Position numbers and translations under genes: made by a program
Assembly (NCBI GenBank): GCA_965285935.1
Contig: OZ260666.1
Location: 65,286,001 to 65,350,000 of the forward strand
Direction: 5' to 3'
DNA from: Ophelia neglecta
Lineage: Eukaryota
DNA: 64,000 bases
Shown here: one piece after another, positions 16,969 to 63,272 of the stretch
How positions within the stretch are numbered: position 1 is the first letter of the stretch
How the letters are laid out: each line of letters opens with the position of its first letter
Notes under the pieces: generated by a model
Database searches by the model: none
What the model saw: only the letters and a program-made list of their open reading frames with translations
What the model was told of the DNA's origin: nothing

Positions 16969-17255
16969 GTATCTCTAGTCATACCAACGTCAACATGTAT
17001 GATTGTCAACGTATCTTTAGTCATACCAACGTCACCCTGTATGATTATCAGCGTATCTCCAGTTATACAAACGTTAACCTATATGATTGACAGCGTATCT
17101 CTTTTTATAACAACGTTACCCTGTACGATTGACAGCGTATCTCTTGTTATACCATCTTTCACATGTATGCATGTCAACGTATCTTTGCATACAAATGTTA
17201 CCCTGTATGATTGTCAGCGTATCCCCAGTTTTACCAACGTTAACCTGTATGTTTG
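16969..17255. repeat. 42-bp minisatellite, about 7 diverged copies
   Basis: Units start at 16969, 17011, 17053, 17095, 17137, 17179 and 17219; consensus approximately GTATCTCTAGTTATACCAACGTTACCCTGTATGATTGTCAGC. Confidence 0.95.
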
Positions 17256-46469: not shown

Positions 46470-49400
46470 TCAGAGATGGCGTTACCGGTATATACATCTC
46501 TGGTGTAATACATATAAATTACTGTAACATCGAAAGCAGTTGCAGTCACCAGATGTCGCCATGATCAAATATAGTTCCATCTTTATCATCTGCAACATGT
46601 CGGTAATGAATCGTAAGTAGTTTTCTTCAAAGTTGTCCAATGTGCATGTAAAAAGACTAGCTGTAGTGTGCCTTCTTTCTCTATGCAATCGGAATATAGA
46701 CAGATGGAATAACAAAACATAATATTACATGACATGCCATGTTTATTGGCCAAATGAACTATGCCACATCTTACCAATATCACAAAGATAGATAAACAGG
46801 AGGAAAAAATGTTTCACCTGCAACAGATCAACACGGCTTTGGAGGAGGAAAATAAATCTCTAAGGACCAAATTAGGTTTGACGAAGGACGGCAGACGACC
46901 CTATACGCCAGAAAATACGCCGTGCAAATTCTCTCTAATGAAAATGAACAATATTCAAGGAAGAATAATATCAAAATTTTTTGTCTTACGATGACCGAAT
47001 ATGAATAGAAGGCAACAGCTACCCGCGTGACTGACTTCCTAAATAAAGAATTGGGACTACAACTCACGACAAATGACATCGACACAGCTGACATTCTACC
47101 AACAAAGTTTGATGGACCTAATCCACTCATAGTCCGCTTCAAGTTCAGGAAATCGGTATCAGTTGTCACAGGAGCTCGTCGGCAACTTCGTGATAAAACA
47201 TTCAGCAATATTAAAGTGGATAATAAGAGGAGGACATGACCCACACGAATGCTAATCTACTTACGAGAGTTACAAAACACCTGTGGGTTGAAACTGCTTA
47301 TAATGGCAAAGTTAAAGAAAGATTACATGGGATACAAGGTAATACATTTGACATTAAACCATTTATAGACCTTGAAAAGCAAATCAGACTCAAGGAGCGA
47401 GTGCGACCACCCAAAAAGTGAGGCTGCAGCCATATAAGGGGCCCGTACGCTGAACTTGACTGGTGTAAAGGTGTAATCAATTTTGTTTTAGCTGGTCCAG
47501 TGGCGTTCTTGCCTTTTGTACTACTACCAACGAGCTGTATCGTAAATCACTTGTCCCTGACACCACAGTCGGTGTTTCTTTGATTTGTTGTTATGTTGAA
47601 AACAAACTTGTTTATTATTTGTGTAAATACTAAGCATGCCACTTTATGTCATCTTTCACTAACCATATACAAGCTATGCTCGACCCAAATCTTCATAATG
47701 CCTAGTATGGATTATAATATAAATGAAATTGAGCTAGTTAAATAGTCCCATTACTATTCACGCGTTGAGATAGGACCCTTGTGTCAAAGTGCAACACTGA
47801 AAAAATCGTTGGCTATCATGAATTTAAACGCCCAAAGTCTTGTCAGTAAATTTCAACTTCTCTTACAAGAGTTCAAAACCATCCACGCTGTTGCGACTGA
47901 CGTGGTCACAGTAATTGAAACTTGGTTAAATAACAACTTGTAGCAGTTTGTAAATATTCCTGGATATTGTCTTGTATGCAAGAACAAACCTGTAAAGAAG
48001 GAGGGGGAGGCATATGTGTTTACGTTAGAGATGAGGTACCTTGTAAAGTAAGAAATGATCTTGATTTCACGGCTAATCATGATAAGTATATCGATGGTCT
48101 GTTTATTGAAATAACTCTTAATATGAATAACAAACCCCTGGCCATAGGCACTATATATGGATCCCCTAGCAAAATTAATATACAAGAGTTTTCAGATCAC
48201 ATTGAGGATAAAATCCATTGAATAGAATCCGAAGGGAAAAATTGTATTATATGTGGCGATATGAACCTGTTAAACTCAACCCCAAACAGAGATTCAGCAA
48301 ACTACCTTGACATGTTTATATCAAACAGTTACATTCCCCTTATTACTCTGCCAACTAGAGTCACCGCGCACTCTTCTACGCTGCTCGATCATATATTTGT
48401 CAAACATAATCCTTCAATATCATAAACTGCAGGAACACTACTCACTCACTATTCAGATCATCACCCAAACTTCGTATTCATTCATAATTCATTAACAACT
48501 GAGTATAAGCTCCCTAAATTTGTTAAATATAGGCCGTTTAACGACACCAATATTAATTCTTTTAAGTAGGGCCTCAGCAATGTAAACTGGGACCCAGTAT
48601 TAAACATTGCCAAAGATAATGCAGACATTGCATACGACATTCTTCTGAACACCTTCAATGCAAAATTGGATGAGTGCATACCTGAAAAAGAAGTGCGGTT
48701 CAATAAGTATAAACACAAAATTAAGCCCATGGGTTAGGCAAGGTATTCTGAAATCTATCCACACACGAGACTACTTAGGTAGGAGATGTGCCCTTCATTG
48801 AGACATGCCCGCTTTCAATGACGTTAATAAGAAGTTTCTAGACTATCGTAACATATAAGATAAGGTTATCAAATCTGCCTAGACCGCTTACTGAGAAGTC
48901 AGGTTTAGTGATGCCAAAAATGACCCTAAATTAATCTGGGAAAATATACGACAGGTAATGAATAGGGGCAAGAATGAAAAGTTGCAATCAGTATTTCTCG
49001 ATAGGGACGGCAACAAACTAACTGACCCGGAAAAGATAGCCCAAAACCTCAATACCTTTTTCGCAAATAGCCCAAAACCTCAATACCTTTTTCGCAAATA
49101 TCGGAACTAGGCTGGCTGATTCGATATCCTCTACCACGAATTTCAAATCCCATCTGAAAACACCAACAATAAATAGTATGTTTATGTCGGAAACAAATGA
49201 TTTCGAAATACTCAAAATTGTAGATAAAATGAAACCACATCTAGTTGTGGATTCGATAATATTACACCTCGGCTGCTTAAACTGACCATTGCCCCTATGG
49301 CTGCAGTGCTTGCAACTATATTTAATTCTATGATCAAACACGAAGTATTTCCAGATTCTGCAAAAATTGAAAAGGTACTTTCTATTTTCAAATATGGCTT

Positions 49401-50770
49401 CATCGATATTTACAAATTATAGACCCATATCAATATTCCCGGCGATCTCGAAGATTCTTGAAAGATTTATTTACAACCGCATACACAATTACCTAATTTG
49501 ATTTAATCTTTTAAATATTTAATGTCTGCCATTAACATAGACTTGTCCAAAGCGTTCGACACTTTGGACCACTCCAGACTTCTCCATAAATTGGACCATT
49601 ACTGGATCAGGGGTAATTGTAATAAGCTACTTGAGAGCTATTTATCTTCTCGTAAACAATATGTCGTTTATCGTAAAGTATCGTCGCACATGCTGCCTAT
49701 TAAATGCGGTGTACCACAGGGATCTATACTGGAGCCTCTGCTCTTTCTAATATATGTGAACGACCTCTGTAACTCTTTTCCTATAGCGCATACCCTATTA
49801 TTTGCCGACGATACCAGTATTTTGTTCCGTTATAAGGATATAATTGATTTACGGATATGAATATAGAAATTGAAAACATATATACCTGGTTGAAATCAAA
49901 TAAACTGTCCTTAAATATTCGAAAAACTAAATACATGTTATTTTGAAACCATCAAAAGCCTTTACCAGCATTCCATAGTATGCTCAATGTCATAGTGAAT
50001 GGTAACCCTATTGAGCTAGTATCAACATTTCAATTCCTGGGCATTTGGTTCGATGTACACCTCAACTGGAAACTAAACACTGATGCAAAATGCACACAAA
50101 TAGCCCAAATAAATCTGGTCATAAATAACATTAAAAGGAAAATTACCTTGTAAAATTCTCAAGCTTATCTAATATGCTCTTGTCCAATCACAACTTACTT
50201 ATAGTTTACTTGTGTGTAACAATGATTGTTATAAAATGAACCTGGACAGACTTTTCTTACTACACAAACGTTCTATGCGCGTTATCACGAAATCCCATCG
50301 GGTATCCTCAACCTGCATGATTTGTATATTTTTCAAGGTTTTAAACTTTCCACTCGAGTAAAGATTAAAAATGTCCTGTATATTTAGTAAGCTGCCTATT
50401 GTCAAATACTGTATCCCATACTCATAATACTCGATACCGAAATGTAATCCAGTTGGATAATATGCGAACAAATGTAATTAAACAATATCTTATAAATTGA
50501 ATGGTATAATTATGTACATTCGACAAATGTTACACATTGATATTAACAAGCATGTGAATATTAAGAGCGCAATTTTGAACCTATATAATAACGCTTGCCT
50601 GGTCAGAAATTGTTATGTCTGTAATTATAATGTATAACCTGGTTTCTCTGAAATGTAATCACTCCAAACCGTGGCATTGTAAGCTTGAAGTTCTTTTGTA
50701 AAATTGTTTTTCTTTTTGTTCTTTATAATCTTAGCATTGTTCTTGCTATTTACTTGTGCTTATTAAACTT
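46470..50770 (+). mobile_element. Degraded near-full-length CR1/L2-group LINE (ORF1, APE endonuclease, RT)
   Basis: ORF1 relics (coiled-coil LEEENKSLRTKL; DIDTADILP...PNPLIVRF), APE motifs (NLNAQSL, ETWL, GGGICVYVR, CGDMN, PTRVT...LLDHIF) and RT motifs (DLSKAFDT, GVPQGSILxPLLFLIYVND, FADDT); many stops, frameshifts and a deletion before DLSKAFD. Ends are approximate. Confidence 0.9.
49036..49097. repeat. 31-bp tandem duplication inside LINE ORF2 (frameshifting)
   Basis: ATAGCCCAAAACCTCAATACCTTTTTCGCAA twice, exact. Confidence 0.95.
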
Positions 50771-52318: not shown

Positions 52319-55300
52319 CTGAAAAATAACACAATACTTATACATGCTGCATGATCATAAGAAAAACTTAGACTGTAGAAAACAGACTCAGAAGACAGTA
52401 ATCTGTCTAACATGACATATCATTCCCTCCTTAGGTGGACACCCACCCCACACCCATGACATGAGAAATGCCACATCCTTACTCCCCCCCACCCCACCCC
52501 GCCCCCACCCCCCCACCCCCACACACACACACATAATTTATGCAGCAACATTGTTAAACATCTGTCTCAAAACACACTTTCAACTCTGGTCTTGATAACG
52601 TGCCCCCCTTTCTAAATCCCCCAGTGTAATAAATCCCATGCCTAGTAGGACTAGATGTCCAATAAGACCTAAAGGTCCTTACCTGATTTGGTTTTTTCTT
52701 ATGTAGGTAGTTTCCAAATTGTCTCCACATCAGTTCAAGAGATATTGCATCCCAAACGTAAAATTAATAAAAGTAATATAAGGAATTTAAAAGATAAAAA
52801 AATTTGAACAACATGATTTCTTCCCAACATAGGTCTAGTAAAACATTATTTTTCTCCGAGACAATGTTCTGTTATACGACAATGTGGGATGTTAAAATGA
52901 ACTATGCACAGTTCGTGTTCCATGAAATTGAAAAAAAAAAATCATTGGCAGTACCACTAAGAAGTAATGAATTATTAGTGGTGATAAATATGATGTGTTT
53001 TGGTAATGTCTTTATTATTTAATGTATTTTTGTTGCTGAAACAATTGCTAGGCTACATTCAGAGAGGGGTGTATTTTCCTAAATCTCTGACGGCTGCAAA
53101 TCAGTATTTATTTACATGAAATAAAAGAAAAAAATGAAAGCTGGGAGCCATTCCTGATTACCAAAGTTTTCCTCTTTAAGAAAGGCAGGTGTAATTACAG
53201 CAGATTTAGGCCTAGATTATTTGGTTTGAATAAAAATTGAGGTGATAAGTTATTGTTTGTACATATTAAAGAAAGTTCAATCTTTATAATGAAATAATAA
53301 TGGAAATATAAATGAAATAAATCAAAGCATGCAGATATTTAAAGCAATCCAAATAGTTTAAACAGATCCTTTTTTCAAAAACTAGTAGTGAACTACTGAA
53401 TTGGATAGTACTACATTCCAATAGCAGCACACCCATGTAAAAAGACAGCCCCTTCAGATTTAAAGTAAATTTGACTCTGTCAAAGAGTATTATTTTTATA
53501 CTGTGAAGTGCAGAAGTTTAATGACACATGAATCACTAAAAAACATGGGCAGCATATTGTAATATCTCATTAAAATTGATTTTTTATTGGGTGTAGCCTC
53601 TACACTCGTTGCTTGACCAGGGCCTGCAGATGTGTGAGATAGCCGGGCCTGCCCATTGGATTATAGGGGATTGAGCCATGACATCAAACACCCCCATCAT
53701 CGTCTGCAGCATACTGATACTTAAACATTGCTTTTATATACACTGGGATGACGATATCTCCCCCTACTTTTCCTACTTTTATGAAGTCCCTTCTGCTACT
53801 AGAAAAGTTACTGAAGCAACTGTAATCCTGTGAAAAACATTGTTATTATTCTGCCACAAGCTTAAAATGCATCTTACCTGTCCTTCCTTGCTTCTTTAAT
53901 ACAATATGGTTTTAGTTTACTAAATTGCTCAAACTGTCGCAGGCAGGTTATTTATGCGTATATTACTAATGTGCTTTATGTGTCTGGTTTGATAAGAACC
54001 ATTGTTATGTGTTGTTTAAAAAATCACATGCCAAGTGAAGACAGGCTTTTCCACCCTATCGTATGAGGGTTTGATTTTGCCACATAGTAGTGTTTACTTT
54101 TATTACTACTCATTTAGTAGTATGTATAGAACATCAAATTTAGAGTTATAGTGTGTTTAAACTATGTGTATATATAAATTAAAATGGAGAGACTCTAGAG
54201 CTTAAGCTATTGCTCACTCATTAAGATATTTTTTATCTTATTATTATTTAGGTACTTCTAAATTGTACCTGTTTTTGGCCACACTATGACATGTTTGACA
54301 AATAAACTTTTTCTCAATAGTGAGTCGCGCTCAGGTAAGGTTATGAGGAAGGGGCCAAGGGGGATGGCTACCCGCTAACAATAGACCTATGAGCGTGGTG
54401 CATCACTTCTGGCACACAATCGCCAATATGCCTAGAAGTAACTCGCAATATAGCGGTCTTTCGACATTTTATGTAATAATGCCGATATCAATTGTAAACC
54501 CCACCCCAAGAACTTATAGTGGGATATTGGGGTTTTCCTGGGCAATACAGGGGCTATCTTCAGTCAGCAGCACCATTGGCAAATAATAAGTATATATTTA
54601 GGGAATACCAAACTCCTACTGGATAGTAAATGTTATAATTGATTTATGTCGATGATTACCATATATACAACAAAACATTCATAATATATAGCGCCCACTA
54701 GGTACCCAGAAGCCAATGAGTGGAAATTTTCTGAAAAAAAACATTGAAAATTATGAAGTTGTAGCACTTTTTGTCAGAAAATATAGGTTTTTTTTCAAAG
54801 GTTGCCATGGAGCACTGAAATTAATTATAAGTGTGACAGCTGTGCCAATGTGTTCCTAAGAGTGTAAAGTAGTAAAGGGTCATTCAGAATTTCCTAATTC
54901 CTCTCCTAACCAGTGATTTTAATAGATTTTGTAACTAGTCATCTAATATAGTACTCATTATTGGCTTTCTCAACTTTGGCGATAGATTACTAATTGTGGA
55001 AAATCTGAGGGACCCTTTACTAAATCTAACTTTTGTTGACAAGTTCCCGTTTGCAGATTTTAATTCAGTTAAAGTTTGAAGAGGCCAGCATTGTTTGAAA
55101 ATGATGAATAGCTTGCAATTCACACCAACTCATCTTTGCGGCTAATCAACAAAGAAGGTGCCGGAACACCGTTTTTCTCACTTGAACGCCTGGATTTGGC
55201 GTGATGCATTCTCACCTTTTCACTGGCCACTAGGGCAGGATAGTCTGCTACAATCCCACAAACTATCATTTTCTTTCCACCAATCATAAGTGTAATTTTT

Positions 55301-57684
55301 GGTGATTTTTAATCGAATGTAATGTTACTCGTTCAGTTCCACATTGTAAGCCATGTGGACAGATTTTCATTGGCTGTGATGCCGTCGCATCAGCCCTTGT
55401 GGCGGAGCCAAGTAGGGGAGATTAGTGGTATCAGACAGATCATCTGTATATATAAGATTAGCTAACTTGATCAGATATAAATCATGCATATAAATCATGC
55501 ATCATCAGTTGGAAATTAATTAGCGAAAGAATAACCTGGGACTTCAGACATCGATTGATTATTGCAAATACAGTGTAATTCATATACAAAAAAACTGTGG
55601 ATGGTGGGATATTCCAACAGGATGGAACGGAAAAAGATACCCTTTTCAAACATTTGTGATTAGATTGCGGCCAATTGTAGGATAAACTGTGCAATCATCT
55701 GGTCTGTGCCTGTAGGTATGGCTTAGCCTGTGTTGACTTTGATATAGTGAAATTCTCGGGGATAAATATATTTCTAGTAAATAAGGAACCTTCGTTTCAC
55801 GTTTTATCGCTCACATACATGCTTTCTCACATACGCTCTATAATAGGGCATGTAGACTACATGTGCAAGAATTTGCAATTTTCAGTATTTGTCGTCATTT
55901 TCATCAGGCTCTGTGTCAATGCTTGCTATTCATTCTGTAGTCTGTGCACCTATTATATACTTTTATTGACAAGTTCATTCTCATAAGAAAATTCGGACAC
56001 AGCCTCTTTCTTGGAGCCATTTTACACGTTTTCTATTAGTGACTTTTGGGCACACTAACATATTATGTACAGGTATCGCACGGCACCTGTCATAATATTC
56101 AGTTTATCACAACTATCAGTGATCCAGTGAGAGTGGGGAGGAGCCTAATTGCCATTGCTTAATGCTTGGTCATGCATGGCTGATCACTATGGTTATGTGA
56201 CGAACAATACCATAACATGTCTTGTTTGTAAACAAACAATTAGCTGATGGGCATGAGTAAAAATCCTTCATTTGAGTAAAATAGAAAATACTAAGAATGA
56301 AAACAAACACACCAATGGATAGAGCGGATTTAGCTCTAACTAAAACAGTGCTTTTTTAAAAAATCACCCAAATTATGACATTTATCATGAACTAAGGGTC
56401 CGGTTTGTATGAACCTTCGTGCACCTGTACAAAGCTTGTAAAGACCGCCTATGAAACGCAAAGCGCTGGGCATGTGTTATAACGTAAAGGCATACACTAT
56501 AGATCTACTTACGCTTTCTGTTATGAGAGGCAGAACGCATTATCAGCTGAGAGAACCTCATGTTTGAAAACATCCTAGGCCATGTCGGAAGTAGTCCTAT
56601 GAGGCAAAAGTTTGGAGAAACACGCTTGTGAAAGTAGTATACAACTTCCACCGGCGAAAACCACATGGCCTCTCATATGAACACAATATTAACCCTAAGC
56701 TTACCCATTTATATCAAAAACAAAATTGAGAAGTCTGGTTAAGGGTTGGGTATAAAATAACTGATATTTTAGATTATTGTGTCATCAATGCTGCTTTCGC
56801 AACAGCTTTCGCTTTCGCCATTAACACAAAGCCGCATCCACCAGTTACAACGACTATGTTGGTTTGGGGCCTAGTCCTGGGGGGGGCCCAAGCGCTAGAA
56901 GGGGATCTCCCCAGGAGGATCTCCCATATCGAGTAGCATATATGATATATATATTTAGAATCCATTTTGTATGTAAGAACTATGAAATGACTGGAGAACG
57001 AAAAACCAAACATAAAATCAAAAACGATTAAATAAATTCATTAGTTATAAAGTTTTGCCCTCATTATTTTTAGATATTTATAATATAATCAATAAGGTAA
57101 GAACATAAATTATGATATATTTCGGTTGGCTGCAATTATTAAATTGCGCTCGAAAGGTTTGAGTTGTGGATTAAAATGTATGAAATTGTGGCAAACATTA
57201 AATAATCATCAATTAAAATTGTGTGCATTTTCGGATAATCAATTCCACCCTAAACTCAATTCATGTAAGAATGTAGGCCTATAAGCACAGCTTTCTTTAA
57301 ATTAGAAGTGCACACACGCCTTTGTATGCACAATCCCTTTAATTCAAGTCTCTGTCAGTTTGAAAAAAAAATTGGAGTGAAGACCCCCCAAACAAAGCAT
57401 TAATCATTGATTAAGAATAGTTCATTAAATCTGTCTTTAATTCTCATACACCAATCGCCAGCTCCCAGAAAGTAAATAAGCTTGTTACGCTAATTAAATG
57501 AAACAAATGTAAACATAAAATTGATGCATGCAATTTAGGTGAAAAGTGGGCAAGAGTTTTCCAAATTCCGAAATCATCAGGAGAAATGTACATATTTACC
57601 TTTAGGACCCCAGTTTCCAAAAAAAAAATGGACATAATCTACCAGCTAATAAATACATGAAAAAATAAGCGAATATTGAAATTA

Positions 57685-59776
57685 CCCACCAAGCCAAAAA
57701 ATGTTTTTTAAATGTCTTAAAAATGTTTTTTTCAAAACATATAAACGTTTGAAAAAACCCAGATCAAACGTTCATTTAACATTTATTTGTTGGTTCTTAT
57801 TAACATTTGTTTAACGTTTTGTAGAAACATTTTTAACATGCGTTTTTATAATGTTTTTCCTCAAACGTCTTTTCAACGTTTTTTTGTTGTTGTTTTTTTA
57901 AACATATTTTTAACGTTTTTAAATAATATTTTAACAAACGTGTTTCCAACGTTATTTTGTTGGTTCTTTTTAACATATTTTTAACGTTAAAAAAAGTATT
58001 ATTCCTTTAATGCGTTCTTTTTAACATACATGTAGTTTTGACATTTTTACAAAAACATTCTTAACAAACGTTTTTATAATGTTTCATGTCTCAGAATCGT
58101 ACATGCGCGCGCATGTCTCAGAATCGTACATGCGCGCGCATGTCTCAGAATCGTACATGCGCGCGCATGTCTCAGAATCGTACATGCGCGCGCATGTCTC
58201 AGAATAGTACATGCGCGCGCATGTCTCAGAATCGTACATGCGCGCGCATGTCTCAGAATCGTTCATGCGCGCGCATGTCTTTGAATCGTACATGCGCGCG
58301 CATGTCTCAGAATCGTACATGCGCGCACATGTATCAAAACTGTTCATGCGCACGCAGGTACCGTTTTGAGCCATGTGTGCGCAGATAAAGATTTGGTAGC
58401 CTAGGAAGTGGTTGCCTTTCAGCATACTTCAGGCCATTCCCTTCAGCAGAATATTTGTCCTATACATAATTGGACATCATTAAGTTGAAGTTGGTGTTGT
58501 AGTGTTTCATAAAAAATATGAACTTGCTTGACTCATGCAATTTAACATTTTAAGAGGCAACATAATTCCTGCTCCAAGATTCATCTTTGTATTTGTTATA
58601 TTTTGATAATTTTTACAGTGGGAAATTCTGTAAGTAGGTTGGTTTGTTACTTATTTGTTTATTTCATGAATAGTTTAGGCCTAGCACTACTATGGATATA
58701 CATGTTTCATACGTTTTTCATGACTATCTGTTTTATACTGCTTTAGTAACGTTTAAGTCGTAACCATGAATGAAAATAAACAACTGTAGTAGTGATCTGG
58801 TGTTAGTACCTTGAGCAAAACTGCCCGTTTGTACTGCTTGGGTAATCCTTTAGTAGTAACAATGATTGAAAATTGCAATAACAGTATAACGAAATGATAA
58901 TAGGATAAAACAGGTCAGTCGCATGGTCCATGTCCATTGTTCTCATGATTTGGAGAGCTGCAGGATATAGATAATGTCAGCAGACATAAACACAAAAATA
59001 TTCAAAACAAAACATAGGTCTACTTTTTGTATATATACATATACATACGCCTATCAGTGAAAGGTAACCTCTTAATTCGGACCACCTCCTGGCCAGGTAA
59101 AACTGGCCTCTTTGTGCAGATAGCGTGTTGAGAATTTTTCTTTTATTATCGGTTGTCTGAATTCCCAGGTTACCTGTAAACGTTTTACACTAAACGTTTC
59201 GAGTGTTTTATACTTATTGAAAATAATTAAAATGTTTTAAACATAATTTTCAACTTCTTTCTAAACGATTGTGGTTGAAAAAAATGTCTTCATTAAAACG
59301 TTTCATAAGATGTGCTATATAATGTTTTATTCACGTTTGCCTTAAATGTTTGCGGTAACATTTATATCACATAATAAAAAATGCATTTCAAACGTTATTT
59401 AAACCTTTTTATTCTGAAAGTTTCAAGAGAACTTTACTTTTTAACACTTATATAGAAAATTAAAAGAATTTCTAAAACGTTTTGTCTAAACATTTCTCGT
59501 TAACCATATCATTCCGCTTTAAAACGTTTCATACAATGTGCTATATAATATGACTTCACGTTTGCCTTAAATGTTCGTGGCTTACCATTTTATTACAAAT
59601 TAAATATGTGTTTAAAACATTCTTTTGACGTTTTTTTTTTCTGAAAGTTTTGTTTTTACCTTCTCAACACCAATTAAGAAAGTTAGAACGTTTTTAAATC
59701 CATATACACGCATTTTATAAACGGTTGTGCTTAACTTTATTCAAAACGTTTGATGAAATGTTTTATGTTTGGTGGG
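57685..59776. mobile_element. Non-autonomous TIR/foldback DNA transposon (CMC-EnSpm-like CCC termini, TA flanks)
   Basis: TA|CCCACCAA at 57683-57692 and TTGGTGGG|TA at 59769-59778; both arms are rich in AACGTT/AACATT subterminal motifs; diverged internal duplication of about 225 bp (about 59293 vs 59519). Confidence 0.75.
58085..58354. repeat. 27-bp palindrome-containing tandem array (9 near-perfect copies plus 1 degenerate)
   Basis: Unit CATGTCTCAGAATCGTACATGCGCGCG; unit junctions form the 16-bp palindrome ACATGCGCGCGCATGT. Confidence 0.97.
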
Positions 59777-60364
59777 TAGTCAGATGCGAGTCAGTAAAGT
59801 CGACTTTAGCACAGATCCCTCGGTGACACCACAGATCATCTTGACCAAAACGAAAATATTCCCATTGACGCGAACGACATATTTCCTGTTGCATAAAACC
59901 AGTTAACCATCAATGAGGGACATTTTGTATAGCTAAATGTTGTAACATTTTAAGAATATAGAAAACAGTGCTCAATTATTTCGGTATCAAACATTCATGG
60001 GGACCGAACGGACAATTTCCCTAATACAACCAGTTCTTTAACCGTATCGTCGAGAAAATCAGAATAACCTGATGGTTAAAGAATGGGAGACAAAGCTAAT
60101 AGTCCATTAAATCAGTCCAGAATCATCAGGAACCAGCAGCCGCAGGCTCACACACATATAAACATCAGTCCCCACCCTCAACCTGTATAAAACTAAATTT
60201 GTAAAATAAAATAAGGCAAATTGATTTCCCTGCAGTGAGAAGTAGCTGTTTTCCATGATGTTCCATGTGAAGTTCAAGTCTAAATATTTTGGCCGTAGCA
60301 GACTGGAATTGAGAGCCCAAATCATGGCTATTGGGATTCACCTTCAGTTCGCATTGTAAAATAA

Positions 60365-61926: not shown

Positions 61927-63016
61927 CATGTTTACTGTATAAAGCAACGGTAGGTCTGATATGGATCCAGAGGGTCAATACACAGGGGTAGATACCATAG
62001 GTAACAGCGTTGTCGATTATTTACTGGTAAACAAGATCTTCAACACTTCAAAATTTTGTTTTGTGCGTGCCAAAAACTCGATCATTATGTTGTTTTGTAT
62101 CGATTTGGGAAAAAAATACCATTGTTGAATATGTACATCCAAACAAGACAGCGCTTTGTTTACCACCTATGCGATCGGTAAAGTATAACATCAATAAATG
62201 TCCAACCACGATTTACCACGTTAAACATAATTTTGCTATGAGTTAAGACATAGTGGATGAGCTCAGTTCGGGTGGCTGTTAAAAACCACTATCTAAAGTA
62301 TATGAATCATTCAGCATATATGCCAAATAGAAACATAGTCTGTCGGGAATCCGTTGTGTCAATAACAACGTTAAAATACATTCGACAGGGCGTTGAATGT
62401 GGTTGAATCGGTTATTGATTAAATCCGCGCATATATTTGATTTATTCCGCGCATTGTGTAGAGGCCGCTACTTCTTGCATTGTCTTATTCCACCCATTAA
62501 GAAGCCGCAATCAAGAGCCAGGAGGAAGACATGTCGATACATCGCCTTGTCTCTATCGCTGGAATTATACTTTTTTTTGGTAAAGTACAGAGATTAGTTT
62601 ATCGTCATTTATCTCGTGTTAGTTTTTTCAAGTTCAATAGTATATTCAAGTCATAACTGACCTAAATATATTCATAAAAAAGTATCAATGTACATACTGT
62701 AAAAATAGCTCAAGTTAAAAATTGATTAAAATATAAGTTATATTTCTCAGTGGGTATACATAAAGTCAATTCAACAATGATTTCTATTTGGAACATGTGA
62801 TTCTACAAGCATCTAGTTGGAAAAACCTATAAGTTAAGTCACAAGTTACGGTGCTTAACTATATGCAACACACCAGGATCCAAAGTTTATAAGCATATCT
62901 ATAATAGTAAATATACTTGCCAACTCGCTATCCCGGTGCGCCCATGACAATATACATTTATACAGGTCATGATAGAGGAAACTGTTATTTGCAATTTATT
63001 GGGTAAATGTTTTTAG

Positions 63017-63087
63017 CTTCAGTTTGTTCAGGATGTGAATCTGGTTGGTCGTCATACCAAGGACACTGCTACAAGTATTTTCCTCAG
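63017..63087 (+). CDS. C-type lectin domain protein, exon (5' boundary uncertain)
   Basis: Encodes SVCSGCESGWSSYQGHCYKYFPQ, the CxxGWxxYxxxCY start of a long-form CTLD; donor CAG|GTAGAC at 63087/63088; candidate acceptors end at 63016 or 63031. Confidence 0.8.
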
Positions 63088-63272
63088 GTAGACCGGTTCA
63101 TTGTCTCATTATCTTTTAAATTACGGCAAAAAGTAAATAAACTACAATAATTATTCAAATAAACTCTTTATATGGAATCAGAGTCACATAAACAAACCTA
63201 CCCTGCATCATGTGTTCTTGTGCAAAATAATCATCCATCTGAGCATCAAACAGGGTGGTTCTTTCGTTTTAG

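What the first reader, a model, noticed from the sequence alone, without database searches (positions are those of the whole stretch)
58085..58354. Transposon-borne tandem array of p53-family-like response elements
Each unit junction reads GTACATGCGC-GCGCATGTCT: two CATG cores exactly 6 bp apart, the zero-spacer geometry of the p53/p63/p73 element (RRRCWWGYYY twice), with three flank mismatches. It is repeated about nine times at 27-bp period, very homogeneous, CpG-dense and alternating purine-pyrimidine (Z-DNA and hairpin prone), and sits directly inside the left arm of a TA-flanked TIR element. Inference: a mobile, methylation-sensitive cassette that could couple the element or nearby genes (the lectin 4.7 kb away, the putative lncRNA, fz5/8) to p53/p63 germline or stress signalling. 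This is the most distinctive structure in the window.
Basis: partly seen in the sequence, partly recalled or inferred. Interest (0 to 1): 0.7.

Follow-up and report, generated by a model that had tools for sequence, protein, structure and literature searches.

The report
Transposon minisatellite of NRF1/p53-like palindromes
This repeat is a standard internal part of a young family of cut-and-paste transposons with over a hundred copies in this animal genome; its units are predicted to bind p53 moderately, but they more likely are stacked binding sites for the promoter factor NRF1 that would serve the transposon itself, and nothing here shows that the host uses this copy.

Summary
The array is real: 27 bp x 10.1, 93% matches. 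It is a fixed internal minisatellite of a young non-autonomous EnSpm/CACTA-type family: 105 exact left ends, 727 right ends, CCC termini, variable 2-bp target duplication. So 'TA-flanked' and 'next to the left arm' describe this copy only, which has a private deletion. The p53 resemblance is more than chance. A published human p53 matrix gives logKd -6.88, the best site in 64 kb, and the host p53 keeps its DNA-contact residues. NRF1 explains the same letters. The core ATGCGCGCGCAT binds human NRF1 in vitro (0.57 uM, against 0.31 for consensus), two abutting NRF1 10-mers give CATG-N6-CATG automatically, and the three 'p53 mismatches' fit NRF1's alternating pattern. The commonest variants move toward NRF1, and an ETS motif follows. 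Conservation does not decide: only positions shared by both motifs are conserved. Copies decay uniformly, without CpG hypermutation. No RNA or binding data were available, and no evidence links this copy to neighbouring genes. p53 sites in a non-autonomous EnSpm are already published (zebrafish EnSpm-N6_DR). Array-bearing copies also seed several macrosatellites. The scan's earlier notes held nothing on this family.

The parts
57683..57684 (.). Left target-site duplication (TA in this copy; variable 2 bp in the family)
57685..59776 (+). Non-autonomous EnSpm/CACTA-type element, 2092 bp, ends CCCACCAAGC...GTTTGGTGGG; no transposase match
57685..58084 (+). Left terminal repeat and AACGTT/AACATT-rich subterminal arm, ending at a private deletion joined at TGTCTCA
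58085..58356 (.). 27-bp minisatellite, 10.1 units; each full unit holds the 16-bp palindrome ACATGCGCGCGCATGT
58099..58118 (.). First of nine 20-mers read as a p53-like site (predicted logKd -6.88) or as two abutting NRF1-type 10-mers (8/10 and 7/10); repeats every 27 bp to 58315
58103..58114 (.). First of eight exact ATGCGCGCGCAT cores, the oligo measured with human NRF1 at Kd 0.57 uM
   Evidence: PMC10810270 Table 1
58373..58384 (+). Degenerate extra unit core (family majority ATGCGTGCGCAG) that keeps the inner palindrome and has lost the p53 site (predicted -5.05)
58403..58410 (+). ETS-like motif (AGGAAGTG here; CGGAAGTG in most copies); ETS label recalled
58630..58635 (+). Candidate splice donor GTAAGT of a predicted first exon; untested
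   Evidence: pattern kept in 55 of 79 loci
59231..59776 (+). Right subterminal arm (AACGTT-rich) and right terminal repeat
59777..59778 (.). Right target-site duplication (TA)

Best explanation
The array is a variable-length internal minisatellite of a young non-autonomous EnSpm/CACTA-type transposon family, and its units are likely stacked NRF1-type promoter sites that would keep the element's own promoter region open and active, with the p53-like spacing likely a by-product of the same palindrome. Shown: element anatomy, 2-bp duplication, family-wide retention, uniform decay after insertion, exact identity of the core with an oligo bound by human NRF1, and a host NRF1 with the base-reading residues. 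Inferred: NRF1 binding in this animal, transcription starting just downstream (ETS motif, candidate first exon and donor), unit-number change by slippage or unequal exchange, and mobilisation in trans by a host EnSpm transposase. This copy is most likely a neutral passenger for the host.
For: Core ATGCGCGCGCAT is exact in 328 of 425 interior units from 79 loci and in 8 units here. Human NRF1(54-284) binds exactly this 12-mer at 0.57 uM against 0.31 for consensus, the tightest non-consensus spacer tested (PMC10810270 Table 1). Host NRF1 gene at C1:65.01 Mb keeps R206, K221, N242 and R244 (numbering from my count on the alignment). The unit matches a head-to-tail NRF1 pair at 15 of 20 bases, and that pair alone scores -6.67 for p53. 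The commonest variants C19G (172 units, 36 loci) and T18C (39 units, 15 loci) move toward GCGCATGCGC. The degenerate downstream unit keeps the inner palindrome and loses the p53 site. 420 of 425 units keep at least one TGCGC half-site, while 364 keep both CATG. GGAAGTGG follows in 58 of 79 loci. One autonomous EnSpm in this genome (C9:29931593) has a 9/10 NRF1 site, an ACTTCC motif and a GTAAGT donor about 500 bp inside its left end, facing the transposase. NRF1 and GABPA/ETS are methylation-sensitive CpG-site factors in mouse (PMC6923324 passages).
Against: No perfect GCGCATGCGC in this array. The two TGCGC halves sit in the non-canonical tail-to-tail arrangement, and the same paper found the intact GCGCNTGCGC needed for reporter activation of TFAM; the zero-spacer form was not among the reporter tests in the section read. 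NRF1-only positions 9-12 vary as much as the spacer (4.5% against 4.4%); only positions shared with p53 are conserved (1.4%). Variants are less damaging to the p53 score than a null (P 0.0012, events not independent), and T2A and C12A improve the p53 score. C19G may be ancestral rather than selected, and it also lengthens the alternating tract. Only 1 of 9 delimited autonomous EnSpm elements carries its own NRF1-like site. No cognate autonomous element was found in 38 transposase loci. Binding data are human and in vitro.
Confidence: 0.5

Rival explanations
1. Neutral passenger: an alternating purine-pyrimidine palindrome that expanded by slippage inside the founder element and is copied with it. 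It resembles both motifs by its symmetry and does nothing.
For: Private changes are 0.78% per site and uniform over p53 core, inner palindrome and spacer, close to 1.1% singletons in the flank. Unit number drifts from 4 to 16. Neither factor-specific position set is conserved. Symmetric variation is expected of any palindrome. Full copies with matched duplications lack the array (L253, L260, L268).
Against: Positions 5-8 and 13-16 vary about three times less than the spacer. The six internally deleted array-less copies have six different breakpoints, whereas the amplified deletion subfamilies keep the array (weak, few subfamilies). A promoter-like ETS motif follows it.
Confidence: 0.25
2. The array was selected as a p53/p63/p73 response-element cluster that ties the element's transcription or silencing to germline DNA-damage signalling.
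For: Predicted logKd -6.88, equal to the predicted values of PUMA BS2, Noxa and PCNA sites in PMC2275157 Table 3. None of 63,700 other window positions or 359,658 other positions scores as well. 91% of 425 interior units score -6.5 or better. Outer positions 1, 2, 9 and 10 matter little across p53 homologues including Drosophila (PMC2807882). Host p53-family genes keep the contact residues. Precedent: zebrafish EnSpm-N6_DR.
Against: Outer core C4/G17 takes 18 transitions against 4 at inner G7/C14, although p53 needs all four (P 0.004). G9, which costs p53 affinity, is nearly invariant (4 of 425), and C19G, which costs affinity, is in 40% of units. The exact inner 12-mer arose in 0 of 7137 simulated p53 sites. 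The last unit and the downstream partial unit lose the second CATG.
Confidence: 0.17
3. The array is a binding platform for the element's own trans-acting protein (TnpA-like) or a structural transposition enhancer (hairpin or Z-DNA).
For: Strong palindromic folding; kept in amplified subfamilies. Spm has an internal GC-rich repeat region under TnpA control (recalled; search found no paper).
Against: The arms already carry the usual subterminal repeats (AACGTT type). The array is 800-1200 bp from the end in typical copies. No such array was seen in 38 transposase loci.
Confidence: 0.05
4. This particular copy has been co-opted by the host as an enhancer for a neighbouring gene.
For: Proximity only: a lectin-like exon 4.7 kb away. 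About half of the tested EnSpm-N6_DR copies drove p53 reporters in zebrafish work.
Against: The copy is young, has a private deletion and ordinary unit variants. Frizzled is 27 kb away. No copy-specific conservation could be shown.
Confidence: 0.03

Closest known systems
Zebrafish EnSpm-N6_DR (Micale et al. 2012, PMC3485254; parts 1-2 of 6 read)
   Same: Non-autonomous EnSpm DNA transposon, a few hundred copies (210 there), carrying embedded p53-like elements.
   Different: There 346 bp with two sites and reporter evidence (14 of 27 responsive). Here 2.0-2.7 kb with a tandem array of 4-16 sites in an invertebrate, no functional data, and the site doubles as an NRF1-type palindrome.
Animal EnSpm/CACTA elements (Transposase_21, PF02992) of this same genome
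   Same: CCC termini, 2-bp target duplication and palindromic subterminal repeats. At least nine delimited examples, including CCCACATAGC and CCCAGCAGGC ends with AACGTT/AACATT repeats.
   Different: None shares DNA similarity or exact ends with this family, and none has the array. The cognate autonomous partner was not found.
NRF1 binding element GCGCATGCGC (Liu et al., PMC10810270; passages and sections 15, 19, 20 read)
   Same: Core identical to their zero-spacer oligo (0.57 uM); each half of the 20-mer is a 7-9/10 match to the consensus; host NRF1 keeps the base-reading residues.
   Different: No intact consensus; tail-to-tail half-sites; multimerised nine times inside a transposon rather than a host promoter.
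p53 response element RRRCWWGYYY x2 (PMC2275157, parts 2-3 of 6 read; PMC2807882, abstract and section 6 part 1 read)
   Same: Two CATG cores with zero spacer; predicted logKd -6.88, within the range of natural sites.
   Different: Three of four quarter-sites miss the position-2/9 purine (four of four in the C19G subfamily); variation across copies does not single out the four p53 core bases.

Membership tests
EnSpm/CACTA (animal type), non-autonomous | Short terminal inverted repeats beginning CCC or CAC (animal form recalled; searches gave no paper stating it) | tested here: met
   CCCACCAA at both ends; same CCC start in PF02992-related autonomous elements of this genome
EnSpm/CACTA (animal type), non-autonomous | 2-3 bp target-site duplication of variable sequence | tested here: met
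   22 of 24 and 28 of 38 full copies; empty site L224 against L055 shows TT duplicated
EnSpm/CACTA (animal type), non-autonomous | Subterminal repeat arrays in both arms | tested here: met
   15 of the window's 30 AACGTT strand-hits per orientation set cluster in the two arms; 83-85 bp and 120 bp arm periods in copies
EnSpm/CACTA (animal type), non-autonomous | Cognate autonomous element with the same ends and a Tnp2-type transposase | tested here: inconclusive
   No BLASTN hit in 20-kb regions round 38 transposase loci; no transposase match in 60 left-end loci of 5 kb; the searches score only the best candidates
Tc1/mariner-type (obligate TA target) | Invariant TA duplication | tested here: not met
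   Only 7 of 22 matched duplications are TA; TT, AA, CG, CT, AG, CA, TC and AT also occur
p53-family response element | Two decamers with C4/G7 cores and 0-1 bp spacer | tested here: met
   Nine sites; all four core bases intact in 387 of 425 family units
p53-family response element | Predicted affinity in the range of natural sites | tested here: met
   logKd -6.88 with the PMC2275157 matrix (human p53; stated average deviation 0.35)
p53-family response element | Selective conservation of p53-read bases | tested here: inconclusive
   p53-only positions 6.2% variable against 4.4% for the spacer; mean effect of variants below null, P 0.0012, events not independent
p53-family response element | Binding and p53-dependent regulation in vivo | not testable with these tools
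   Needs EMSA, ChIP or reporter
NRF1 binding element | Intact GCGCNTGCGC consensus | tested here: not met
   Best 8/10 and 7/10 in this copy; 9/10 in 19 of 425 family units among the listed variants
NRF1 binding element | TGCGC half-sites in an arrangement bound in vitro | tested here: met
   Exact ATGCGCGCGCAT, Kd 0.57 uM with human NRF1
NRF1 binding element | Host NRF1 with conserved base-reading residues | tested here: met
   PF10491 gene at C1:65.01 Mb; exon aligns to PDB 8k3d/8k4l, E 2e-29
NRF1 binding element | Occupancy and promoter activity in vivo | not testable with these tools
   Needs RNA, ATAC or ChIP data

The most novel reading that the evidence does not exclude
The unit is an overlapping NRF1/p53 switch. 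NRF1 drives the unmethylated element, p53 occupies the same bases after damage and overrides it, and the family's dispersed copies and macrosatellites (1297 exact palindromes) together form a genomic sink or network for both factors.
Probability: 0.12. Interest if true: 0.65.

Novelty: new variant of a known kind. Interest (0 to 1): 0.35.

Why it matters
If the sites are bound, a single transposon family has put more than a thousand NRF1/p53-compatible sites into one invertebrate genome, many in macrosatellites, which is a testable case of factor titration and of how DNA transposons hijack housekeeping promoter factors. As it stands it is a well-defined transposon feature with a published p53 precedent and no functional data.

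Tried and rejected
Expression: no RNA holder listed; three DNA-type contig sets of one sample were laid. They show the family's high copy number and a second allele contig that leaves the window sequence at 57664, 20 bp before the element, in two runs. Whether that allele is an empty site stayed unresolved. Autonomous partner: PF02992 and two protein searches, 38 loci inspected, none matched. One candidate delimited at C12:74.52 Mb was dropped because its 'ends' lie in integrase-like coding sequence. Six of 60 left-end pattern hits were not family members, and one (L250) was read in the wrong orientation; all seven were left out of the 45 of 53 count. Tc1/mariner rejected on target duplications. 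A coding role for the array frames rejected: unit number and frame vary freely. CpG decay as a methylation proxy: CpG transition frequency 2.3-4.3% against 2.3-3.9% at other C/G in four element segments, so no hypermutation. An MTF-1 metal-response reading (TGCRCNC, recalled) also fits the core and was not testable. Literature: searches returned nothing; (NRF1 + transposable element + tandem repeat) listed five unrelated papers; one search gave only plant CACT(A/G) termini; four look-ups by recalled id were not held. No supplements were read; Table S1 of PMC2275157 and Figure S4 of PMC3485254 (the EnSpm-N6 site sequences) could bear on the comparison.

Full report
Observation. The array is as described: 58085-58356, period 27, 10.1 copies, 93% matches, with nine CATG-N6-CATG pairs, seven of them in the 20-mer GTACATGCGCGCGCATGTCT. 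Each unit holds the perfect 16-bp palindrome ACATGCGCGCGCATGT. It is CpG-rich (o/e 1.87 against 0.75), alternating purine-pyrimidine over 15-21 nt and folds far better than shuffles (z -11.3). The window is G000:C9:65286001-65350000 of a 762-Mb animal genome. Its p53 is closest to PDB 7pc6, which I recall as the annelid structure of PMC8901663 (passages read).

The host element. The array lies in a 2092-bp element, 57685-59776, with ends CCCACCAAGC and GTTTGGTGGG and AACGTT-rich arms. The target duplication is a variable 2 bp. It matched in 22 of 24 distinct full copies and 28 of 38 further ones, only 7 of the 22 being TA, and an empty paralogous site shows TT duplicated. Elements round PF02992-positive or related transposases in this genome have the same build: CCC ends, 2-bp duplication, palindromic subterminal repeats, in at least nine delimited cases. 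I therefore file it as a non-autonomous EnSpm/CACTA-type element. The animal form of the termini is recalled, since three searches gave no paper stating it. No cognate autonomous element turned up in 38 transposase loci.

The family. There are 105 exact left ends and 727 exact right ends, controls 0, and 1297 exact 16-bp palindromes. Full copies run mostly 1.9-2.8 kb. The array was present in 45 of 45 distinct loci picked by the array or downstream segments, 20 of 22 picked by a TA-preceded left end within 1.5 kb and 45 of 53 family loci picked by the left end, with 4-16 units, median 9, among the 79 loci analysed (loci with fewer than four units were not added). It normally starts 800-1200 bp inside the element. 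Its position against the left arm here comes from a private deletion at TGTCTCA. The excess of right ends comes at least partly from macrosatellites. C1:72.53-72.73 Mb is a run of 1.72-kb units (array, right part and flank; 21 sampled units 99.4% alike, lengths differing by 27), and 3.1-, 5.3-, 1.8- and 3.9-kb tandem units occur elsewhere with different breakpoints.

The p53 reading, tested. With the measured matrix of PMC2275157 (Table 2) the unit scores logKd -6.88, like the predicted values for PUMA BS2, Noxa and PCNA. It is the best site in the window; none of 63,700 other positions there or 359,658 elsewhere reaches it. Shuffled units reach it at 1.5e-4 and palindrome-constrained shuffles at 1.3e-3. 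Specificity is conserved among p53 homologues, and outer positions matter little (PMC2807882). The host has two p53-family loci, and the intronless one keeps the contact segments TKSTT, SSCVGGLNRRP and VRICACPGRDR. Binding in vitro is therefore plausible. The idea also has a direct precedent: zebrafish EnSpm-N6_DR, 210 copies with two p53 elements each, 14 of 27 tested regions responsive (PMC3485254).

The NRF1 reading. The unit matches such a pair at 15 of 20 bases, and a perfect pair scores -6.67 for p53. CATGCGCGCGCATG with random flanks reaches -6.5 half the time, while 0 of 7137 simulated p53 sites of this strength contain the exact inner 12-mer and 47 reach 15 of 20. PMC10810270 measured that very 12-mer, ATGCGCGCGCAT, at 0.57 uM against 0.31 for consensus; it is exact in 328 of 425 interior units. 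The host NRF1 keeps R206, K221, N242 and R244. The commonest variants, C19G (172 units) and T18C (39), move toward the consensus, and C19G weakens p53 to -6.70. A degenerate unit just downstream keeps the inner palindrome and scores -5.05 for p53. An ETS-like GGAAGTGG follows in 58 of 79 loci and a candidate donor in 55. One autonomous EnSpm shows a similar NRF1-ETS-donor order facing its transposase.

Against NRF1, and the limits of the conservation test. There is no intact consensus, the half-sites are tail-to-tail, and the same paper found the intact motif necessary in TFAM reporters. Only 1 of 9 delimited autonomous elements has its own such site. By position class, changes per site are 1.4% where both factors read, 6.2% at p53-only, 4.5% at NRF1-only and 4.4% in the spacer, so neither factor is singled out. 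Outer p53 core bases take more transitions than inner ones (18 against 4), which is against p53. Yet variants are on average less damaging to the p53 score than a null (P 0.0012), and T2A and C12A improve it. These events share ancestry and leak from degenerate end units, so none of the P values counts independent events.

State of the copies. Private changes in the array are 0.78% per site and even across classes, against 1.1% singletons downstream: young copies decaying without host selection that I can detect. CpG transitions are not raised over other C/G in four segments of the element, so there is no sign of germline methylation. Sensitivity to methylation remains possible, since NRF1 and ETS factors are blocked by it in mouse (PMC6923324 passages). 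Nothing links this copy to neighbours: Frizzled is 27 kb away, the lectin-like exon at 63007-63150 has no Pfam hit, and the lncRNA was not examined.

Verdict. A real, family-wide transposon minisatellite. Most likely a multimerised NRF1-type promoter module of the element (0.5), otherwise a neutral palindrome (0.25), a selected p53 cluster (0.17), a transposition aid (0.05) or a host enhancer (0.03). It is a new variant of a known kind. I found no description of an NRF1-site array in a DNA transposon in one search, which is a thin basis. Three look-ups in the scan's notes held nothing on this family. Interest 0.35.

Noticed in passing
G000:C1:72,526,000-72,735,000 (L141-L149): About 210-kb macrosatellite of 1.72-kb units (array, right part of the element and 280 bp of flank), 99.4% alike, nested in inverted orientation between ends of the same family and interrupted by other insertions; unit lengths differ by 27 bp.
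   Followed up: partly
G000:C1:71.66-71.70 and 77.54-77.61 Mb; C2:55.42-55.50 Mb; C8:74.669-74.675 Mb; C9:65.389-65.403 Mb: Further independent tandem amplifications (3.1, 5.3, 1.8 and 3.9 kb units) that all include the array; one four-copy run lies 40 kb from the window.
   Followed up: partly
Family-wide: Listed copies are confined to intervals of the large contigs (C1 67-88 Mb, C2 55-65, C8 31-75, C9 37-68, C12 7-10); no exact palindrome occurs in the first 67 Mb of C1, while other EnSpm transposases lie elsewhere. Pericentromeric accumulation or local hopping, untested.
   Followed up: no
G000:C2:30389374 (L095:1078-2316): Intronless 413-aa p53-family open frame with DNA-binding and tetramerisation domains and no SAM hit, beside an intron-containing locus at C2:82.03 Mb: a probable intact p53 retrogene.
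   Followed up: partly
G000:C7:28593686-28597191 (L285-L286): A 3.5-kb insertion inside an EnSpm transposase gene carries six canonical GCGCATGCGC sites: another mobile element rich in NRF1 motifs.
   Followed up: no
G000:C1:68597636-68597845 (L274): A second, diverged NRF1-like DNA-binding segment apart from the main NRF1 gene.
   Followed up: no
window 63007-63150 and about 71,500 (L021): Two near-identical exon-sized frames reading GC(E/D)SGW(S/A)SYQGHCYKYFPQ, 8.5 kb apart: repeated C-type-lectin-like first exons.
   Followed up: partly
window 48000-50150: Degraded non-LTR retroelement with a reverse-transcriptase fragment (PF00078, E 2e-14).
   Followed up: no
window 57400-57664: A second allele contig at about half depth differs at 18 bases and leaves the window sequence 20 bp before the element's left end; compatible with the insertion being on one haplotype, not shown.
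   Followed up: partly
window 16969-17255; 54870-55022; 59062-59175: A 42-bp minisatellite, a small 25-bp inverted-repeat element, and a 25-bp inverted repeat inside the transposon.
   Followed up: no
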